From NCBI GenBank assembly GCA_050178385.1, contig JBFXGD010000008.1:1-46655 (forward strand): a DNA stretch of 46,655 nt, in the 5' to 3' direction. Source of the stretch: Calditrichaceae bacterium. GTDB taxonomy: Bacteria; Calditrichota; Calditrichia; Calditrichales; JBFXGD01. Of this stretch, positions 30,001-36,000 are shown piece after piece. A program made the position numbers. Positions within the stretch are counted from its first letter, which is position 1; every line of letters begins with the position of its first letter.

Positions 30001-33000
30001 CCGGTCCATCATAGTGTTTGGCAAATTCCACACCGTACTCATAGGCTTTAATCATGCTTCCTGTGCGAGTGGATCCGCCGGCAAGTGTCCCATCACCAAG
30101 TTTCAGACTTATTATTTTTGCACCGGGCGCGACACCGTTTAATCCTTCCTGGCCGTTAATTTTATAACCCGTGGCAATCCCGGCCACATGTGTTCCATGA
30201 CTGGAGCCGTCGTAATGAAAATTTACCCGCAGCTCATCCGGAAAAATATTAAGCGCGAATGTTGCAAGGTTTTTCCATTTTTCAGAATCCCGCCCTTTAA
30301 ACTGAAATGACTGATAACTTTCCTTATAATTCCTTATGGGAAACTCATCATCAATATTTCCGTCTGCATCGAGATCAATATATGCCTGCCATCCGTTTGA
30401 TCCGTTAATAACAAGAACTCCAAATTGCTGATCAGTCTCACCATTATTATTAATATCAGGTAAGACAGTATTTTTGAATCGCTCTTCATCAAGCACACCA
30501 ACATAATAAACGGAATCTACCGGTTGATCCTCTAATTTTTCAAAACCGTATAATCTGTGTCCATCCGGATGTATTAAATAACTTTCATTATCCTGAATAC
30601 CCTTATCAGCCTGTTCCAGAAAAACATCGCCTTCACCGGTAAAATCCTGCGCGTCGATAACTTTAACATTCCCATCAGGTGTTTCTTTCAGACCTGCAAC
30701 TCCCATATCCACACCTGTATCTAAGATGATAACTACTACATTCTTTCCATTATATTCGGGATGCATTTTAATAAACTCAGATGCTCCGGTTCGTGTTACA
30801 TTGAGAAAACTCCAGTCTTCTCCCTGAACAAGAGATATGAATATTAAGATAAGGAATATACTTACCCAATTTATAAAACGAGATGTAAACATAGGGGATT
30901 CCCGTAATTATTTGACCATTTTAAATTAAAATAACATTGTGGGGGAACGATCGGAAGAGGGTTGTTTAATGGCATTCGAAATCCATTTCCAATATCAAAT
31001 TTTTGATTTGATTATGAAGATTCATCACAATATACAATACGGAAAAATGTAATTCAACCGGGAAGTCAGCATTGTTATTTGTTCTGCTTGCCTGCATGCG
31101 CTAGTTCTTTGCTCAGGAAGGAGCTATCCATATCCATTACACAACGGAATCCGAGAAAATCAAATTGGCAGCTAGGATCAAACCAGGTCCGGTATGTCAC
31201 TCTTAAATAATCACCGCTGCGATTCCATGATGATCCGCGGATAACTTTATATCTTCCCTGATCGGCGCCATTTGGGTTCTGTTGATTAGATGTCTGAAAA
31301 TATTTTTCATCGTACCAATCAGCGCACCATTCGGTTACATTACCAATCATATCATATATTCCGAATCCATTCGGTACAAATGAACCGACCGGCGCTGAAT
31401 TTATATATCCGTCATAATATCCTTCAACGACAGGATAAAAAAATTTGACTTTTTTCATCGTTTCATCAGCAACATTGCCAAAATTACGACGATATTGGCT
31501 TGTTTTATCAGAATTATCTTCCCGAATATTTCCCGCTGCCCGGGCGGCAAACTCCCACTCCGCTTCTGTAGGCAGTCTTTTACCCGCCCATTTGGCATAA
31601 TTATTCGCTTGTCCCCAGGTTACATTCACTACCGGGTGATTCTCCTTATTCCATTCCGGCTGAACGGGCATTTTGCTTCCTGTGGCAATACAATATTCTC
31701 TGAATTGCGAGACAGTGACTTCATGGATGTCCATATAAAAAGGATTAAGATATACAGAATGCACGGGAGATTCATTACTTTTTTCCGTGCTTCCCATATC
31801 AAACCACCCTCCGCGAATATAGGACATTCCTTCAACAGCCTGGTATTCGCCGCCACCTTCAGAACCAATTGTTTTATCCGGGTTATGTTCATTCATCCTG
31901 AAAATCTCAAGGCTGACTGAGCATGAAACCAGCATCAGAAATGGCAAAAACAGAACTAAAACAAGAAAACGTTTCATATGCAAATAAATTCAGTTAATAG
32001 TGATTTTATTGACGAGCAAACATTTTTTAAGTATCGTCAGAAATATATGCCATCTTTATTAATTTCACAAAAAAATCATCATAATCAAGAATATTTTATT
32101 TTTAGATACGCGCAAAGAGAATATAATGAGGTGTGGAATTAAAGTTCATTTTTCAGGTAAAATGATACAATCAGCAGCAAAAGGGGAAAATTTCTCAACA
32201 TGCGCTGACAATATTCTGAAAAAGAACAGAGTGCAATTATATCCATTCGAAAATTTAATCATTAAAAAAGGGGATTTGTTATCCGGCGGGTGGACAACAA
32301 ATCCCCAAAAGAAGGAATTAAGAACTAGCACACCTTATCAATTATTTATGGTAGCATTAATTGGGGCCATTGTTCTGTTTTTTCGGCCTCTGGAAGGATG
32401 GACGGTTTCCAGCATACCGAAACCTAGATCGTTCAGCTGTCCAAGACCAAGATCATATATAAGTTGCAAAACTTCAGGGTCGGCTTTAATATGAATTGGT
32501 GCCAGTATCCCCCGAATCTGCTCAGGCGCATCTTTTGAATTTTCGAGAGTAATGACTTTGGTGATTCTATTATTCTTTCTTCGAATATATTCTCTGTCAA
32601 ACTCAAGATTTAACCTGATATTGCTCTTCTTCTGTTTATTAATCAGGTTATATTTATATATGAGATCTTTTTCAATGTAATCAAGGTACTCTTCTTCTCC
32701 CGGCAGTAAATATCCGCCGTTGAATTGATACATAGCCCTGTGTCTGTTGTTAAATCTCTGACGATATACCGCCACCGGTGACAGACAAGTAAATTGCGCT
32801 TCCGCTTCTTTAAATTCGGGTGACGGAATGAATTCAATCCCCCCCACATCAAACCAGGCATTTTTTATTTTAATTTTCCCCCTGTCCCGTAGTTCTTTGG
32901 CAATGAGTCCGAGAAATTGATAATAGGGAGAAGAAATATACCAGTAAAATTCACCCGACAAGATACCAATCTGAAAATCCTTAATCTCGCGTTCCGGTAT

Positions 33001-36000
33001 GATTAACTGTGAGAAAGTATACATATCGAACTTTGGGCGCTCTCCATCGATTCCCGGGAGCAATGAGTTAAGATACCGGCGATACTCAAATGTGAGCTGA
33101 TTTATCAGTTTTACAAGATAATAGTTTGTGTTGATAGGCAAAAAGGTCCGGGACCGTTTATTCTTGAATGTGATCTTAATTCGCATAAGCATCTCTCGTT
33201 TCACTGAAGATTAAATTAATTTTATGATGTTAATATTGCAATGAATGTGCCAAGTTTTCCAATTCGCACAAAAACCAGTCCAATATATTGATTTTTAAAG
33301 AATTACGCCAGAGATAAGTGAAGTATGAAGAAATATAAAAGTGGGGATATTCTCCCCACCACGAAAATTCACAAGGGAATATTTCCCTGTTATTTGTTTA
33401 ATAGCTGATCTTTTACATTCCTGGCAATATCTATAAACGCCTTTGTCTGAGGGCTTTCGCTATCACCTGCGACGATCGGTACACCCTCATCGCCACCGGC
33501 GCGGATAGCCGCGTCTATTGGTATTTCACCCAATAACGGGGTACCGAGTTTTTCACATTCTTTTTTAACGCCACCATAAGAAAAGATTTCAGTCCTTTCC
33601 CCGCAATTGGAACACACAAAATAACTCATATTTTCGATGATCCCGAGTATCGGCACATTCACTTTCCTGAACATTTGCACGCCTTTAACAGCATCGAGCA
33701 GCGCCACATCCTGAGGTGTCGATACAATGACTGCTCCATCAAGCGCGACGGACTGAGAAAGGGTCAACTGGGCATCTCCCGTTCCGGGAGGCATATCGAA
33801 TAGCATGACATCGAGTTCCGGCCAGGCCACATCATTCATTAACTGCTGTAACGCTCTGTGAACAAGCGCGCCACGCCAGATAACTGCATCATTATTATCT
33901 ACGAGAAAACCAAGCGACATCAGCTGTACACCGAATTTCTCGATCGGATAAATCTTCGTCCCGTCGTAATAAGGCTGTTCTTCCACCCCGAACATAAGCG
34001 GGATGCTAGGACCGTAAATGTCCGCATCAAGTAAACCGACAGACAGTCCTTCCTTCGCAAGAGCAACAGCCAGGTTAACCGCCACCGTAGATTTCCCGAC
34101 CCCGCCTTTACCGCTGGCAACCGCAACCTTATACTTCACGGATGGCAGGAAGGTCGTTTTTTGCTGAGCAGAAGTATGGAATTGAGGTGGTTCCTGGTTT
34201 TCCTGTAGGACAGTTACTGTATAGTCTTTGTATTTTTCGGAAAAAACCTTTTTAATCTCAGATTCGATATCCTTCCCTACGGATGTATCCTTAGATTTTA
34301 TGAGTAATTTTACTGTAATCAGATTGTCTTTAATTTCAATCGCATTAATAATACCAAAAGACACAATATCCCTGCTGAATCCCGGATATTTTATCTCTTT
34401 AAGTGTTTCAACAACCATATCTTTATTTACCATTTGCTTCTCCTTACGGTCCTAAATTTAAAACTTAAAATATAATGTAAGCACACCTGTCATTTTTTGA
34501 TGCAATTATTGACAGAATGTAACAAAAATAATTTAATTTCCAGTTAATACACTGGCATCCCACTATACTTCCGGGATAGATTGGCAGTGATAATTGAGGC
34601 GGATAGTAAAAACTTTATCATGTTCGATTAACAATGTTGACTGATTTTATGTTATATAACCACTTCCAGGTCTAAAACCGAATCGGTTTCAAGGTCCAGT
34701 GAAACCACCTTGACCTTGTCTAATTCTATATCGTTGATTAATGTCAGTTCAACTTTGAAGTTTTTATGCTCAACATCCTTGGATATTAATTTACCCATGC
34801 CATTAATAACACCGGACTTTTCTCTATCGTAATAACTTATTAAAATGGATTCATTCAAATCCAGCGCATCAAGAATTTGCAATAATTCATCAACGTTTTT
34901 CTTCTCATCGATGATGAGTTCGTCGAGATCTTCCTCGATACTCATAATATCGCCGTCTTTATATTTGAAATCAATTGTGCCGCCTCCACCCTTCAGGTAA
35001 ATCAGCCGATTATCCATGTCCTGCTTGATGCTTCGCTCGACATTGACTACCCTACCGGTAAAGTACTCATTCCGAATGTCCAGAATCTGGACTGTAATCG
35101 GAGACTCTTCAGGAGTTCCATCGTATTCAACTCTTCTGATGTTAACCTTTTTGTTACTGCCAATCTTCTCTACAAGTTTTCTGACTTCATCCGGAGGAAG
35201 AGCGCCGGGACGGTGTTTAAGATGTTTTTTTGATTTAAATATTTTGATAAAGAAACGTGCATTACGGTCACTGTCAAAAAACCAGTTTCTTTCATCTGAT
35301 TTATATGTATTCATGCACCCTCCTTAAAAATAGCTTTTTTTTGCAACTATAATAGAAATTAAAGCCCAAACCTCATAAAATCAAGATTTTAAACTTATTC
35401 CTCCTGAATATTGAATAAAATTCTACTTTGTCTTATTTATAATTTCTTGCCTCATGGATCAAATGTCGCGCGTTTTCGAGCGCGTGACTGGATATGATTT
35501 CCCCGCCAAGCAGATTCGCGATCTCCTTTTCCCGGTTGTCTTCACTCAACAAACTTATACCGACAAATGTCCTGTTGTCCTCAACTGATTTTGCCACCTT
35601 ATAATGCGAATCCGCAAACGCCGCAATTTGAGGAAGATGGGTTACGCACAAAATTTGATGGTATTTTGCCAGTTCGGACATTTTTTTCCCTACGATCTGA
35701 GCAATTTTCCCGGATATACCGTTATCAATTTCATCAAAAATTAAAATCGGAAGCTGATCCATTTCCGCGAGTATCGTTTTAAGAGCGAGCATGATTCTTG
35801 AGATTTCGCCACCGGAGGCGATTTTGTGAAGAGGCTTAAAATCTTCCCCCGCGTTTGAGGCAATCTCAAACAAAACCTGATCAAATCCGCGGGAATTTAG
35901 AACAACCCGCTTACCTTCAACTATAAACTGTCCTTCAAGATGTTCATGAAAAACCTGATGAACACGAAAACGCGCCTGCGGCATACCGATTTCTGTTAAT

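What a model noticed while it worked through the whole genome (the two positions that open the first line are those of the whole stretch)
32338..33186. Orphan Cas6 kept at a housekeeping locus (mrp-cas6-S8 protease), independent of CRISPR-Cas
g00362 is a full-length Cas6-family protein that sits alone between an Mrp/ApbC Fe-S carrier gene and a subtilase, far from the genome's only CRISPR-Cas locus (type I-B on C107, which has its own Cas6b). I read it as a Cas6 that was domesticated in the ancestor of Calditrichaceae/JBFXGD01 as a host RNA-binding or RNA-processing factor with a non-CRISPR substrate, switched on through a conserved sigma-54 promoter. New would be a vertically inherited, slowly evolving Cas6 with a cellular job, a natural sequence-specific RNA tool outside CRISPR.
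Evidence so far: Pfam Cas_Cas6_C 9.6e-25; best solved relatives Pyrococcus Cas6nc PH0350 (non-catalytic Cas6) E 2e-11 and Cas6-1. 57 homologs at 38-95% identity form a closed Calditrichota family, next hit E 1.8e-4. Orthologs (E<=1e-53, 39-95% identity, full length) in 24 of 86 Calditrichota genomes: 21 of 26 of one family incl. 9 of 9 of one genus, 2 of 2 of this family, 1 elsewhere; 4 further genomes have only weak hits (E 1e-11 to 1e-21, ordinary Cas6). In 24 loci the mrp gene is adjacent in 21 (the 3 others end at a contig edge) and the S8 protease on the other side in 13; gaps beside it are ~200-360 bp, no room for an array. Six genomes with the orphan have no Cas1 hit (G002 99%, G007 100%, G012 95%, G0 [...]
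(Added by a program. Inside this text positions count along the whole contig: contig position 1 is position 1 of the stretch shown here. "Call 12" and the like, gene names such as g00115 and contig names such as C1 are that model's own, and its searches are not shown. The text may have been shortened before it was handed on; [...] marks where a part breaks off. The agent that wrote the report below was given it as the finding of a first reader that could run no searches.)

Follow-up and report, generated by a model that had tools for sequence, protein, structure and literature searches.

The report
Solitary, triad-less Cas6 under sigma-54 control
A CRISPR RNA-cutting enzyme gene (Cas6) has been kept on its own among housekeeping genes of a whole bacterial lineage, has lost its known cutting residues, and has its own conserved on-switch and RNA hairpin, so it has probably been re-used as an RNA-binding protein for a job outside CRISPR immunity.

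Summary
Window 32338-33186 (-) encodes an intact 282-aa Cas6, confirmed by TIGR01877, Pfam, an AF2 model and Foldseek. It lies between mrp/apbC and, in this genome, an FGE-domain gene followed by the S8 protease. The genome's only CRISPR-Cas locus that I found (type I-B, contig C107) has its own Cas6b.

Orthologs occur in 24 of 86 Calditrichota genomes, always at the same site. They co-diverge with recN (r 0.95) and have dN/dS of about 0.03.

New here:
- All 23 aligned orthologs lack the Tyr/His/Lys triad. Of the 133 nearest other Cas6 proteins, 96 keep it.
- A complete sigma-54 control region is conserved: two palindromes about 97 and 130 nt upstream of TGGCAY-N5-TTGY.
- A single-copy 3' hairpin with a conserved C-rich loop is inherited together with the gene.

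The "closed Calditrichota family" claim fails. An exhaustive profile search gives a continuum of scores, and there is a sister clade of equally solitary, triad-less Cas6 genes in Marinisomatota.

Best reading (0.6): an exapted, probably non-cleaving RNA-binding Cas6. Trans service to CRISPR arrays is not excluded (0.2). No RNA target or expression data were obtained. An earlier scan note reports an analogous solo Cas6b in Zixibacteria.

The parts
32338..33186 (-). Solitary cas6 gene, 282 aa. It has the tandem-RRM Cas6 fold and an intact glycine-rich loop (GLGQLNDLGFGM), but lacks the Tyr/His/Lys triad.
   Evidence: AF2 model: pLDDT 82.3, pTM 0.83. Foldseek top hits are PH0350, 3ufc, 5yi6 and Pf Cas6. 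Triad columns.
33237..33252 (-). Sigma-54-type -24/-12 promoter, TGGCACattcaTTGCA, 51 nt upstream of the ATG.
   Evidence: Read. The motif TGG[CT]A[CT]N5TTG[CTA] occurs 45-70 nt before the ATG in 23 of 23 loci that have upstream sequence. Genome-wide there are only 30 hits; 11 are in promoter position, and 4 of the other 10 lie beside activator genes.
33375..33387 (-). Distal enhancer-like palindrome GGGAAATATTCCC, centred about 129 nt upstream of the -24 TGG. It lies just after the mrp stop codon and may double as part of the mrp terminator.
   Evidence: Palindromes sit at fixed distances of about 96-98 and 128-133 nt: at least one in 21 of 23 loci, both in 10 of 23.
33343..33357 (-). Proximal enhancer-like palindrome GGGGAGAATATCCCC, centred about 98 nt upstream of the -24 TGG, followed by a T-run (terminator-like).
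   Evidence: The combination of palindrome and promoter has no convincing second copy in the own genome; the scan's one other hit (contig C233, a TGGTA variant ahead of a 107-aa ORF) looks like chance.
33209..33215 (-). Conserved 5'-leader motif TTTAATC between the promoter and the start codon.
   Evidence: exact in 14 of 24 loci, TTTAAT in 21 of 24 by my reading. In the own genome it occurs in 65 of 2929 crude gene leaders.
32270..32306 (-). 3' hairpin with a 15-bp stem and loop ACCCGCC, followed by T6. It is a terminator with a lineage-conserved C-rich loop and is a candidate cognate RNA.
   Evidence: Model R1 finds one hit per carrier genome and none above 32 bits in 5 non-carriers.
33390..34433 (-). 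Context: mrp/apbC Fe-S carrier gene, the conserved upstream neighbour.
31075..31983 (-). Context: FGE-sulfatase-domain lipoprotein gene between cas6 and S8. It is present in f1, and also at this site in non-carriers of f2 and f4.
28031..30892 (-). Context: S8 subtilase gene.

Best explanation
This is a Cas6 gene that left CRISPR-Cas in an ancestor of several Calditrichota families. It has since been inherited vertically as a single-gene unit at the mrp | (FGE) S8 junction.

Shown by sequence:
- The unit has its own control region and ending: two GGGAAWWWTTCCC palindromes at fixed distances from a -24/-12 promoter, a short leader, the ORF, and a terminator hairpin.
- The protein keeps the Cas6 double-RRM fold and the glycine-rich RNA-binding loop.
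- All three residues of the Tyr/His/Lys triad used by its nearest canonical relatives are replaced (N/K/E/D, S/N/K/A, D/N).

Inferred:
- An enhancer-binding activator switches the gene on through sigma-54 in response to an unknown signal.
- The protein binds a specific RNA without cutting it, or cuts only slowly by another chemistry. It acts as a sequence- or structure-specific RNA-binding factor for a host RNA rather than for crRNA.

Speculative (about 0.25):
- Its ligand is the single-copy 3' hairpin of its own mRNA, whose loop YCCCRCC is conserved while the stem covaries. That would give autoregulation or a stable protein-RNA particle.
For: Identity and fold.

Same site in 24 of 86 genomes: mrp adjacent in 21 of 24 loci, the other 3 at contig edges. 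Non-carriers G030, G017 and G001 keep the block without cas6.

Selection and descent:
- dN/dS is 0.033, 0.029 and 0.034 in the three pairs with unsaturated dS.
- Pairwise identity tracks RecN (r 0.95, 91 pairs) and Mrp (r 0.82; Mantel 0 of 2000).
- Mean identity is 0.58 for Cas6 against 0.54 for RecN.

Triad:
- The Pf Cas6 Y31/H46/K52 positions align to N29/N40/D54 by MAFFT. The HMMER alignment places His46 on P44 instead; neither column holds a conserved His.
- 0 of 23 orthologs have Y, H or K at those columns. Among the 133 nearest other Cas6 proteins the counts are Y 105, H 102 and K 109, with the full triad in 96 of 133.
- Y31A and H46A abolish Pfu Cas6 activity, and K52A lowers it 40-fold (PMC3652601, passages read).
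- The closest solved relative, PH0350, is described as a non-catalytic Cas6 (PMC3902920, passage read). It carries L, A and G at these positions (my reading of the alignment).

Each CRISPR-Cas locus that I examined has its own Cas6:
- G000 type I-B has Cas6b.
- G002 type III-A has its own weak Cas6.
- In the closed genome G006, the three other Cas6 hits lie beside Cas1, RAMP genes or arrays.

G007 (100% complete) has the orphan as its only TIGR01877 hit. It has no Cas1, no RAMP, no Cas5, no Cas3 above the cut-off, and neither of the two G006 repeat types.

Promoter and enhancer.

Hairpin.

A solitary, triad-less sister clade exists in Marinisomatota, with no array or cas gene within 8 kb.
Against: - No RNA target, transcript or activity was observed.
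- Cas6 enzymes without the histidine can still cut: Sso Cas6 does (PMC3652601). The orphans keep basic residues in helix 1 (K/R at position 26 in most) and R36/R37.
- 18 of 24 carriers do have Cas1, against 23 of 62 non-carriers. Ten of 24 have RAMP genes. Service to arrays in trans therefore remains possible.
- Most genomes are fragmented MAGs. Arrays could be sought systematically only in the own genome.
- The -12 element is GT, not the canonical GC, in most f3 loci.
- The palindromes overlap the mrp terminator region, so part of their conservation could be terminator function.
- The hairpin was picked in each locus as the most stable hairpin, so its high pairing score is partly circular. 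It is followed by a T-run in most loci and may be no more than a terminator.
- The closest structural relatives bind unstructured repeats, not hairpins (recalled, not tested).
Confidence: 0.6

Rival explanations
1. It is still a CRISPR factor working in trans. As a stand-alone Cas6 (cutting by a non-histidine mechanism) or a Cas6nc-like repeat-binding protein, it would process, chaperone or protect crRNA of whichever type I or III systems the lineage carries. It would be kept at a fixed chromosomal site while the systems themselves come and go.
For: - Stand-alone Cas6 enzymes serving type III and I-A systems are described in the literature (PMC5965381, passages).
- Sso Cas6 lacks the histidine yet cuts (PMC3652601).
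- 18 of 24 carriers have Cas1 against 23 of 62 non-carriers. Ten of 24 have RAMP genes.
- G012 holds array fragments although no cas genes were found.
- PH0350, the nearest solved relative, comes from a CRISPR-bearing archaeon and its structure entries are titled as a RAMP protein binding RNA substrates.
- An earlier scan note on a solitary archaeal Cas6 reached this same reading (e1-951620; not checked here).
Against: - Every CRISPR-Cas locus examined has its own Cas6.
- The resident systems differ in type and repeat between genomes, while the orphan is conserved at recN-like rates.
- All three triad residues are gone, including the lysine that Sso Cas6 keeps.
- G007 shows no other cas gene.
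- RAMP occurrence is similar in carriers (10 of 24) and non-carriers (20 of 62).
- A dedicated sigma-54 enhancer-promoter is unusual for a constitutive processing enzyme (inference).
Confidence: 0.2
2. It is an RNA-binding or RNA-chaperone member of a sigma-54 stress regulon, with many low-specificity targets. The 3' hairpin is merely its terminator.
For: - In the own genome the same promoter motif precedes three Hsp20 genes and other stress or energy genes.
- Reported Cas6 catalytic rates are so low that the authors liken these proteins to RNA chaperones (PMC3652601, abstract and discussion passages).
- The hairpin is followed by a T-run in most loci.
Against: - The Hsp20 promoters carry a different upstream repeat (ATGGCGCA-type). 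The cas6 palindromes have no convincing second copy in the genome, so the activator is probably different.
- The loop columns are more conserved (mean 0.76) than the stem columns (0.57 and 0.63).
Confidence: 0.12
3. It is a decaying remnant of a lost CRISPR-Cas locus with no present function.
For: - The catalytic triad is lost.
- The gene is absent from 5 of 26 f3 genomes. For the one checked at the locus (G017), no coding remnant remains.
Against: - 23 of 24 ORFs are complete, and the 24th is cut only by a contig end.
- dN/dS is about 0.03.
- 48 columns are invariant across 23 sequences.
- The regulatory elements are conserved.
Confidence: 0.02

Closest known systems
Pyrococcus horikoshii PH0350 'Cas6nc' (PDB 3QJJ/3QJL/3QJP) and the P. 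furiosus Cas6-related protein (3UFC)
   Same: - Best sequence match: E 2.3e-11 for the single sequence and 1.3e-20 for the profile.
- Best fold match: Foldseek E 1.4e-19, TM 0.85 on the target.
- Described as non-catalytic (PMC3902920).
- Lacks Tyr/His/Lys at the aligned positions (my reading of the alignment).
   Different: - Archaeal, about 24% identical.
- It comes from CRISPR-bearing genomes and was studied with CRISPR repeat RNA.
- No evidence here of a fixed housekeeping locus, a sigma-54 control region or a cognate hairpin.
- The triad loss is probably independent, because the nearest bacterial relatives of the orphan keep the triad.
Canonical Cas6 of P. furiosus (3PKM/3I4H) and Cas6-1 (5YI6); bacterial TIGR01877-type Cas6 of type I-B and III loci
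   Same: Same family models, the same tandem-RRM fold and the same glycine-rich loop.
   Different: - These proteins carry the Tyr31/His46/Lys52 triad: 96 of the 133 nearest relatives have all three. The orphans have none of the three.
- They sit in or beside cas operons and arrays.
Stand-alone Cas6 of Sulfolobus solfataricus (SSO1437, 3ZFV; SSO2004, 4ILL)
   Same: It has no active-site histidine and is not part of an effector complex (PMC3652601).
   Different: - It keeps the lysine (Lys51) and cleaves repeats.
- It is a weak fold match here (3zfv TM 0.42-0.45).
- It serves CRISPR arrays.
Solitary Cas6 clade of Marinisomatota
   Same: - Sister to the Calditrichota clade inside a 35-leaf triad-less clade (support 0.96).
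- No array or cas gene within 8 kb.
   Different: - 26-32% identical by tblastn.
- Different neighbours: a small GAF protein and tRNA-Ser(CGA) in 3 of 5 loci.
- No sigma-54 motif and no C-loop hairpin seen.
Solo Cas6b relative lacking catalytic histidines in Zixibacteria
   Same: The same phenomenon as that note reports: a Cas6-type protein without catalytic residues or CRISPR partners, under selection, in another phylum that I recall belongs to the FCB group (AI note, not checked here).
   Different: It derives from the Cas6b family (PF17955/PF17262), not from the TIGR01877 type, so it is an independent event.

Membership tests
Cas6 (TIGR01877 / PF01881) | Match to the curated family model above its cut-off | tested here: met
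   TIGR01877 scores 110.3 bits against a cut-off of 58.65. PF01881 scores 86.4 bits against 23.
Cas6 (TIGR01877 / PF01881) | Tandem ferredoxin-like (RRM) fold | tested here: met
   AF2 model pTM 0.83. The Foldseek hits listed at E <= 1e-13 are all Cas6 structures, with TM 0.79-0.85 on the target.
Cas6 (TIGR01877 / PF01881) | C-terminal glycine-rich loop (G-h-G-x5-G-h-G; motif recalled) | tested here: met
   G247, G249, G255, F256, G257 and M258 are invariant in 23 of 23 sequences.
Cas6 (TIGR01877 / PF01881) | Catalytic Tyr/His/Lys triad as in Pfu Cas6 (PMC3652601) | tested here: not met
   0 of 23 orthologs have Y, H or K at the aligned columns. The nearest relatives have Y in 105, H in 102 and K in 109 of 133.
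Cas6 (TIGR01877 / PF01881) | Encoded in or next to a cas operon or CRISPR array | tested here: not met
   No array in the window. None of the 24 loci, whose flanks reach up to 8 kb where the contig allows, matched anything but the window's six housekeeping neighbours in the tblastn; cas families and arrays were not scanned in the 23 other loci. The own CRISPR-Cas locus is on another contig.
Cas6 (TIGR01877 / PF01881) | Endoribonuclease activity on repeat RNA | not testable with these tools
   Needs a biochemical assay.
Sigma-54-dependent promoter with enhancer | GG-N10-GC (-24/-12) element at a suitable distance from the start codon | tested here: met
   The window has TGGCAC-N5-TTGCA, 51 nt before the ATG. 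23 of 23 loci have TGG[CT]A[CT]N5TTG[CTA]. In most f3 loci the -12 dinucleotide is GT rather than GC.
Sigma-54-dependent promoter with enhancer | rpoN and enhancer-binding activators present in the genome | tested here: met
   rpoN scores 419.6 bits on C97. There are 25 PF00158 hits, one of them in the window at 44342-44842.
Sigma-54-dependent promoter with enhancer | Upstream activator sites at a fixed distance from the promoter | tested here: met
   Palindromes are centred about 96-98 and 128-133 nt upstream: at least one in 21 of 23 loci, both in 10 of 23. Protein binding is not shown.
Sigma-54-dependent promoter with enhancer | rpoN-dependent transcription start in vivo | not testable with these tools
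   No RNA run was listed.
Intrinsic terminator | G+C-rich hairpin followed by a T-run | tested here: met
   Window 32306-32270 followed by TTTTTT. Comparable hairpins occur in the other loci.
CRISPR repeat or mini-array | Two or more direct repeats with spacers, or similarity to a resident repeat | tested here: not met
   TRF and my k-mer scan find none in the window. There is no copy of the C107 repeat elsewhere in the genome at up to 9 mismatches. Rfam finds nothing in the window.

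The most novel reading that the evidence does not exclude
The gene and its 3' hairpin form a natural two-part module: a Cas6-derived, non-cutting RNA-binding protein and its single cognate stem-loop (conserved loop YCCCRCC, covarying stem). 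A dedicated sigma-54 activator switches the module on, and it has been kept since before the orders of this class split. Together with the solitary sister clade in Marinisomatota, this would be a lineage of Cas6 proteins exapted for host RNA control. It would also be a ready-made orthogonal protein-RNA pair.
Probability: 0.25. Interest if true: 0.8.

Novelty: new variant of a known kind. Interest (0 to 1): 0.62.

Why it matters
Known exaptations of CRISPR parts include CAST transposons, type IV systems, HRAMP and the Streptomyces I-E/STAND module (Koonin and Makarova 2022, PMC8730458, passages read). These involve effector modules.

My searches found no description of a lone Cas6 fixed in a housekeeping locus for a non-CRISPR job. 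The terms used were: orphan, standalone, solo and stand-alone Cas6, Cas6 homolog and Cas6-like; Cas6 with exaptation, non-defense and RAMP; Cas6nc and non-catalytic or inactive Cas6; Caldithrix or Calditrichaeota with CRISPR and Cas6. Only listings and the named passages were read, and subscription journals are not covered.

If the reading is right, it would:
- add a Cas protein to the cell's own RNA-binding repertoire;
- show that Cas6 can outlive its CRISPR system by hundreds of millions of base-pair changes under housekeeping-level constraint;
- offer a small, sequence-specific RNA-binding scaffold with a candidate natural ligand.

It is directly testable because one carrier (G006) has a closed genome.

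Tried and rejected
- RNA evidence: the look-up of sequencing runs listed no RNA holder for window 31900-33600, so no reads were laid.
- Rfam at gathering thresholds found nothing in the window.
- Other CRISPR arrays in the own genome: four further k-mer hits (C86, two on C106, C119) are plain tandem repeats.
- Solitary copies of the C107 repeat: none at up to 9 mismatches.
- More C-loop hairpins in the own genome as possible multi-copy targets: 10 hits of at least 10 pairs, but only the cas6 one exceeds 12 pairs, and control loop motifs give 5-21 hits. Rejected.
- More genes behind the same palindrome-plus-promoter combination: only one weak case, on C233 (TGGTA variant, a 107-aa ORF). Treated as chance.
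- The TTTAATC leader motif as a relic of the GTTTCAATC 5' end of the G006 repeat: resemblance only, not pursued.
- Coding remnant of cas6 in the 449-bp mrp-S8 gap of non-carrier G017: none (best tblastn E 0.086). A TGGCAC-N5-TTTT string there is at most suggestive.
- Context of P0060: its only real relative among the species genomes is a Caldithrix-labelled locus, 39% identical.
- P0066 alone found nothing. An 11-sequence alignment was too divergent for the tool. A 4-sequence alignment worked.
- The Marinisomatota loci show no sigma-54 motif and no C-loop hairpin.
- The protein Atlas returned only Cas6 clusters.
- Earlier-findings look-ups by place and by sequence returned nothing.

Full report
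**1. What is in the window**

The minus strand carries a run of unrelated genes:
- a 796-aa beta-propeller-type protein (37155-39545);
- recN (35433-37151);
- a 220-aa protein with no family hit (34652-35314);
- mrp/apbC (33390-34433);
- the finding (32338-33186);
- an FGE-sulfatase-domain lipoprotein gene (31075-31983);
- a 953-aa S8 subtilase gene (28031-30892).

The finding is an intact 282-aa ORF. Its start, MRIK..., is conserved in every ortholog.

It is a Cas6 by several measures:
- TIGR01877 scores 110 bits against a cut-off of 58.65.
- PF01881 scores 3.6e-24.
- The best solved relatives are PH0350 (2.3e-11) and Cas6-1, 5yi6 (3.2e-11).
- An AlphaFold2 model built from 23 orthologs (pLDDT 82.3, pTM 0.83) matches PH0350, 3ufc, 5yi6 and Pf Cas6 at Foldseek E 1e-13 to 1e-19, with TM 0.79-0.85 on the target.

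The window holds no array and no Rfam family.

**2. The rest of this genome**

- A k-mer array finder over all 320 contigs gives one CRISPR array, at the end of C107. Four other hits are plain tandem repeats.
- C107 carries HTH-cas1-cas2-cas6b-cas8b-cas7-cas5-cas3-cas4-array.
- Its Cas6 belongs to the unrelated Cas6b family: Pfam Cas6b_N/C, PDB 4z7k at 3e-39, and no similarity to the orphan.
- The genome has one Cas1, no other PF01881 or TIGR01877 hit and no RAMP hit.
- The genome is 94% complete and fragmented, so absences are provisional.

**3. Distribution and synteny**

In 86 Calditrichota genomes, full-length orthologs (E <= 6e-53, 39-95% identity) occur in 24: 2 of 2 in f1, 21 of 26 in f3 (9 of 9 in genus g7) and 1 of 10 in f5. 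Seven more genomes have only weak, ordinary Cas6 hits.

I fetched up to 8 kb on each side of the 23 other loci, as far as the contigs allowed. The results:
- mrp is the upstream neighbour on the same strand in 20 of them, so in 21 of 24 with the window. The other 3 start at a contig edge.
- S8 follows in 13.
- The block propeller-recN-hyp220-mrp-cas6 reaches as far as the f5 genome G048.
- In G003 and G005 the mrp-cas6 pair is inverted as one piece relative to recN-hyp220.

Non-carriers keep the same block without cas6:
- G030 (f4, closed genome) has mrp-FGE-S8.
- G001 (f2) has mrp-FGE.
- G017 (f3) has mrp, a 449-bp gap, then S8. The gap holds no coding remnant.

The gene is therefore a clean presence/absence character at one chromosomal junction.

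**4. Selection and descent**

- All 24 ORFs are open. One is cut by a contig end.
- Nei-Gojobori dN/dS is 0.033 (G000-G038), 0.029 (G007-G009) and 0.034 (G021-G020). Five further pairs had saturated or near-saturated dS.
- Pairwise Cas6 identities correlate with those of RecN (r 0.95, 91 pairs from 14 loci) and Mrp (r 0.82, 210 pairs; Mantel 0 of 2000 permutations).
- Cas6 is on average as conserved as RecN (0.58 against 0.54).

This fits vertical inheritance under housekeeping-level constraint and excludes a decaying relic.

**5. Active site**

In Pfu Cas6 the triad is Tyr31/His46/Lys52. Y31A and H46A are inactive, and K52A is 40-fold down (PMC3652601, passages).

- The profile alignment to 3pkm places these residues on variable or non-basic positions of the orphan.
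- In a MAFFT alignment with the 133 nearest non-family Cas6 proteins of 235-300 aa (taken from the exhaustive search), the three columns read Y in 105, H in 102 and K in 109 of 133. In the 23 orthologs they read K/N/E/D, S/N/K/A and D/N, with no Y, H or K at all.
- 96 of the 133 carry the full triad.
- There is no invariant histidine anywhere in the family.
- The glycine-rich loop is invariant.
- PH0350, the closest solved relative, is called a non-catalytic Cas6 (PMC3902920). It also lacks the three residues by my reading of the alignment.

Caveat: Sso Cas6 lacks the histidine, keeps the lysine and still cuts. The orphans keep basic residues in helix 1. Loss of catalysis is therefore likely, not proven.

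**6. The family is not closed**

The exhaustive profile search over 1.84 billion representatives gives 1866 hits and a smooth fall of scores: 358, 300, 220, 215, 199, 183 bits and so on.

A FastTree of 23 orthologs plus the 133 hits gives the following:
- The orthologs plus one metagenomic protein form a clade (support 0.90).
- That clade sits inside a 35-leaf clade (support 0.96) whose members all deviate from the triad.

Four of those other members led to five loci in Marinisomatota-type MAGs (record titles Neomarinimicrobiota, Marinimicrobia, Fidelibacterota). In those loci:
- The Cas6 is again solitary. No array was found in these loci and no cas family among the 22 neighbouring ORFs scanned.
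- The neighbours include L21, CorA, PPDK, aconitase, an ECF sigma factor and QRPTase.
- In 3 of 5 loci, a small GAF protein and tRNA-Ser(CGA) lie just upstream on the other strand.

Two other loci from that scan (Chlorobium, Clostridia) are more distant. The Chlorobium protein carries the canonical LH...FKLFTFS motif.

**7. Relation to CRISPR-Cas**

- Cas1 is found in 18 of 24 carriers and 23 of 62 non-carriers.
- RAMP genes are found in 10 of 24 carriers and 20 of 62 non-carriers.

The six carriers without Cas1, taken one by one:
- G002 has a type III-A locus with its own weak Cas6 and an array.
- G026 has a second Cas6 beside a histidine kinase at a contig end.
- G012 has fragments of both G006 repeat types and a weak 327-aa Cas6-like ORF.
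- G021 (72% complete) and G022 (89%) are incomplete.
- G007 (100%) has only the orphan. It has no Cas1, no RAMP, no Cas5, no Cas3 above the cut-off, and neither of the two G006 repeat types.

In the closed genome G006, the three other Cas6 hits lie next to Cas1, RAMP genes or arrays. The orphan is 90 kb from the nearest of them.

Independence from CRISPR is thus well supported by locus logic and by G007.

**8. Control region**

Upstream of the ATG the window reads TGGCACattcaTTGCA at 33252-33237.
- All 23 loci with upstream sequence have TGG[CT]A[CT]N5TTG[CTA] 45-70 nt before the ATG.
- In most f3 loci the -12 dinucleotide is GT.
- In the own genome the stricter motif occurs only 30 times on both strands.
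- Eleven of those are intergenic and upstream of a same-strand gene. They include three Hsp20 genes, PFOR, a porin, a response regulator, a cytochrome c gene and an ATP-grasp gene.
- Four of those ten other genes sit beside one of the 25 sigma-54 activator genes.
- rpoN is present.

Two palindromes of the type GGGAAWWWTTCCC lie at fixed distances from the -24 TGG, centred at about 96-98 and 128-133 nt.
- At least one is present in 21 of 23 loci and both in 10 of 23, including the distant G048.
- In the window they are 33387-33375 and 33357-33343.
- Non-carriers lack them at this junction.
- In the own genome the scan for this palindrome-promoter combination returned the cas6 region and one weak hit on C233 that I take for chance.
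- They overlap the mrp terminator region, so they may have a dual role. Their constant spacing to the promoter argues for an enhancer.

The leader carries a conserved TTTAAT(C) motif of unknown meaning.

**9. The 3' hairpin**

Each locus has a long hairpin (12-21 pairs) soon after the stop codon, mostly followed by a T-run. In the window it is 32306-32270.

- The stems differ completely between genera. On an ungapped alignment centred on the loop, 15 of 16 pairs show changes on both sides. 88.5% of cells pair, against 62.7% in shuffles and at most 50% when slid.
- Because I chose the most stable hairpin in each locus, that pairing is partly built in.
- What is not built in is the loop. CCCRC is present in 17 of 23, CCCCC in 2 more and CCTGC in 2. 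Mean loop column identity is 0.76, against 0.57 and 0.63 for the stem halves.
- A covariance model of the element finds exactly one hit (52-63 bits) in each of five carrier genomes, always after cas6. All five were in the training set, and only 150 first-look candidates per genome were scored.
- The best score in five non-carriers is 31.8 bits.
- No other long C-loop hairpin exists in the own genome.

The element is at least the gene's terminator. It may also be the protein's ligand, but nothing here tests that.

**10. Literature and earlier notes**

My full-text searches and the passages read turned up stand-alone Cas6 enzymes serving type III and I-A systems, the non-catalytic PH0350 and several exapted effector modules. 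They turned up no Cas6 fixed in a housekeeping locus.

Another reads a solitary archaeal Cas6 as serving distant arrays. Neither was checked here.

**11. Verdict**

It is corrected on one point: the family is not closed, because a solitary sister clade exists in a second phylum.

Function remains inferred. I put 0.6 on an exapted, probably non-cleaving RNA-binding role, 0.2 on trans service to CRISPR arrays, and about 0.25 on the specific idea that the 3' hairpin is the ligand.

Noticed in passing
own genome contigs C140:8122-8598, C160:4719-5162, C165:972-1430: Three Hsp20 genes each carry a sigma-54-type promoter (TGGCAY-N5-TTGY) and share an upstream ATGGCGCA/TATGCGCCA-like repeat. This suggests a sigma-54/activator-controlled small heat-shock regulon.
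   Followed up: partly
window 31075-31983: An FGE-sulfatase-domain lipoprotein gene (best NCBIfam resemblance GldK/PorK, far below the cut-off) sits between cas6 and S8 in f1. It sits directly after mrp in non-carriers of f2 and f4, and is absent from the f3 loci.
   Followed up: partly
L037 (G003) and L040 (G005): The mrp-cas6 pair is inverted as a unit relative to recN-hyp220, so the two genes and the control region between them stayed together through a rearrangement.
   Followed up: no
L087:7730-7819, L088:1183-1274, L090:7731-7820: In three Marinisomatota loci the solitary Cas6 gene lies about 180 nt from a divergent tRNA-Ser(CGA) gene and a 165-175-aa GAF-domain protein gene, a second conserved non-CRISPR context.
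   Followed up: partly
proteins P0055, P0064, P0059: P0055 (471 aa, on a 1.5-kb contig) joins an orphan-type Cas6 to a PF02621 menaquinone-biosynthesis domain. P0064 has an unrelated C-terminal half. P0059 is internally shortened. These may be gene-call or assembly artefacts, or broken copies.
   Followed up: no
G012:C207:298-693 and G014:C54:911-1306: These are weak TIGR01877 hits (E about 6e-5) in 327-aa ORFs, away from the RAMP genes found in those genomes. They may be another divergent Cas6-like family of unknown context.
   Followed up: no
L061 (G026:C349) 3448-4263: A second, canonical-scoring Cas6 (TIGR01877 3.5e-35) lies directly after a 1050-aa PAS/hybrid histidine kinase gene at a contig end. 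In this genome no Cas1, RAMP or Cas5 hit, and no Cas3 hit above the cut-off, was found.
   Followed up: no
window 34652-35314: A 220-aa protein with no Pfam or NCBIfam hit is conserved between recN and mrp in carriers and non-carriers alike, at 48-65% identity.
   Followed up: no
window 44342-44842: A sigma-54 activator (PF00158) gene lies 11 kb from cas6. Whether it is the activator of cas6 was not examined.
   Followed up: no
own genome C119:1-287, C86:8084-8432, C106:7129-7666: Tandem repeats with periods of about 87-100 bp are not CRISPR arrays. The C119 unit looks like it contains a tRNA-like fragment (my impression only).
   Followed up: no
L079 (G017) mrp-S8 gap, locus 8246-8694: The non-carrier gap contains TGGCAC-N5-TTTT about 40 nt after mrp. 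This may be a decayed remnant of the cas6 promoter. No coding remnant is present.
   Followed up: partly
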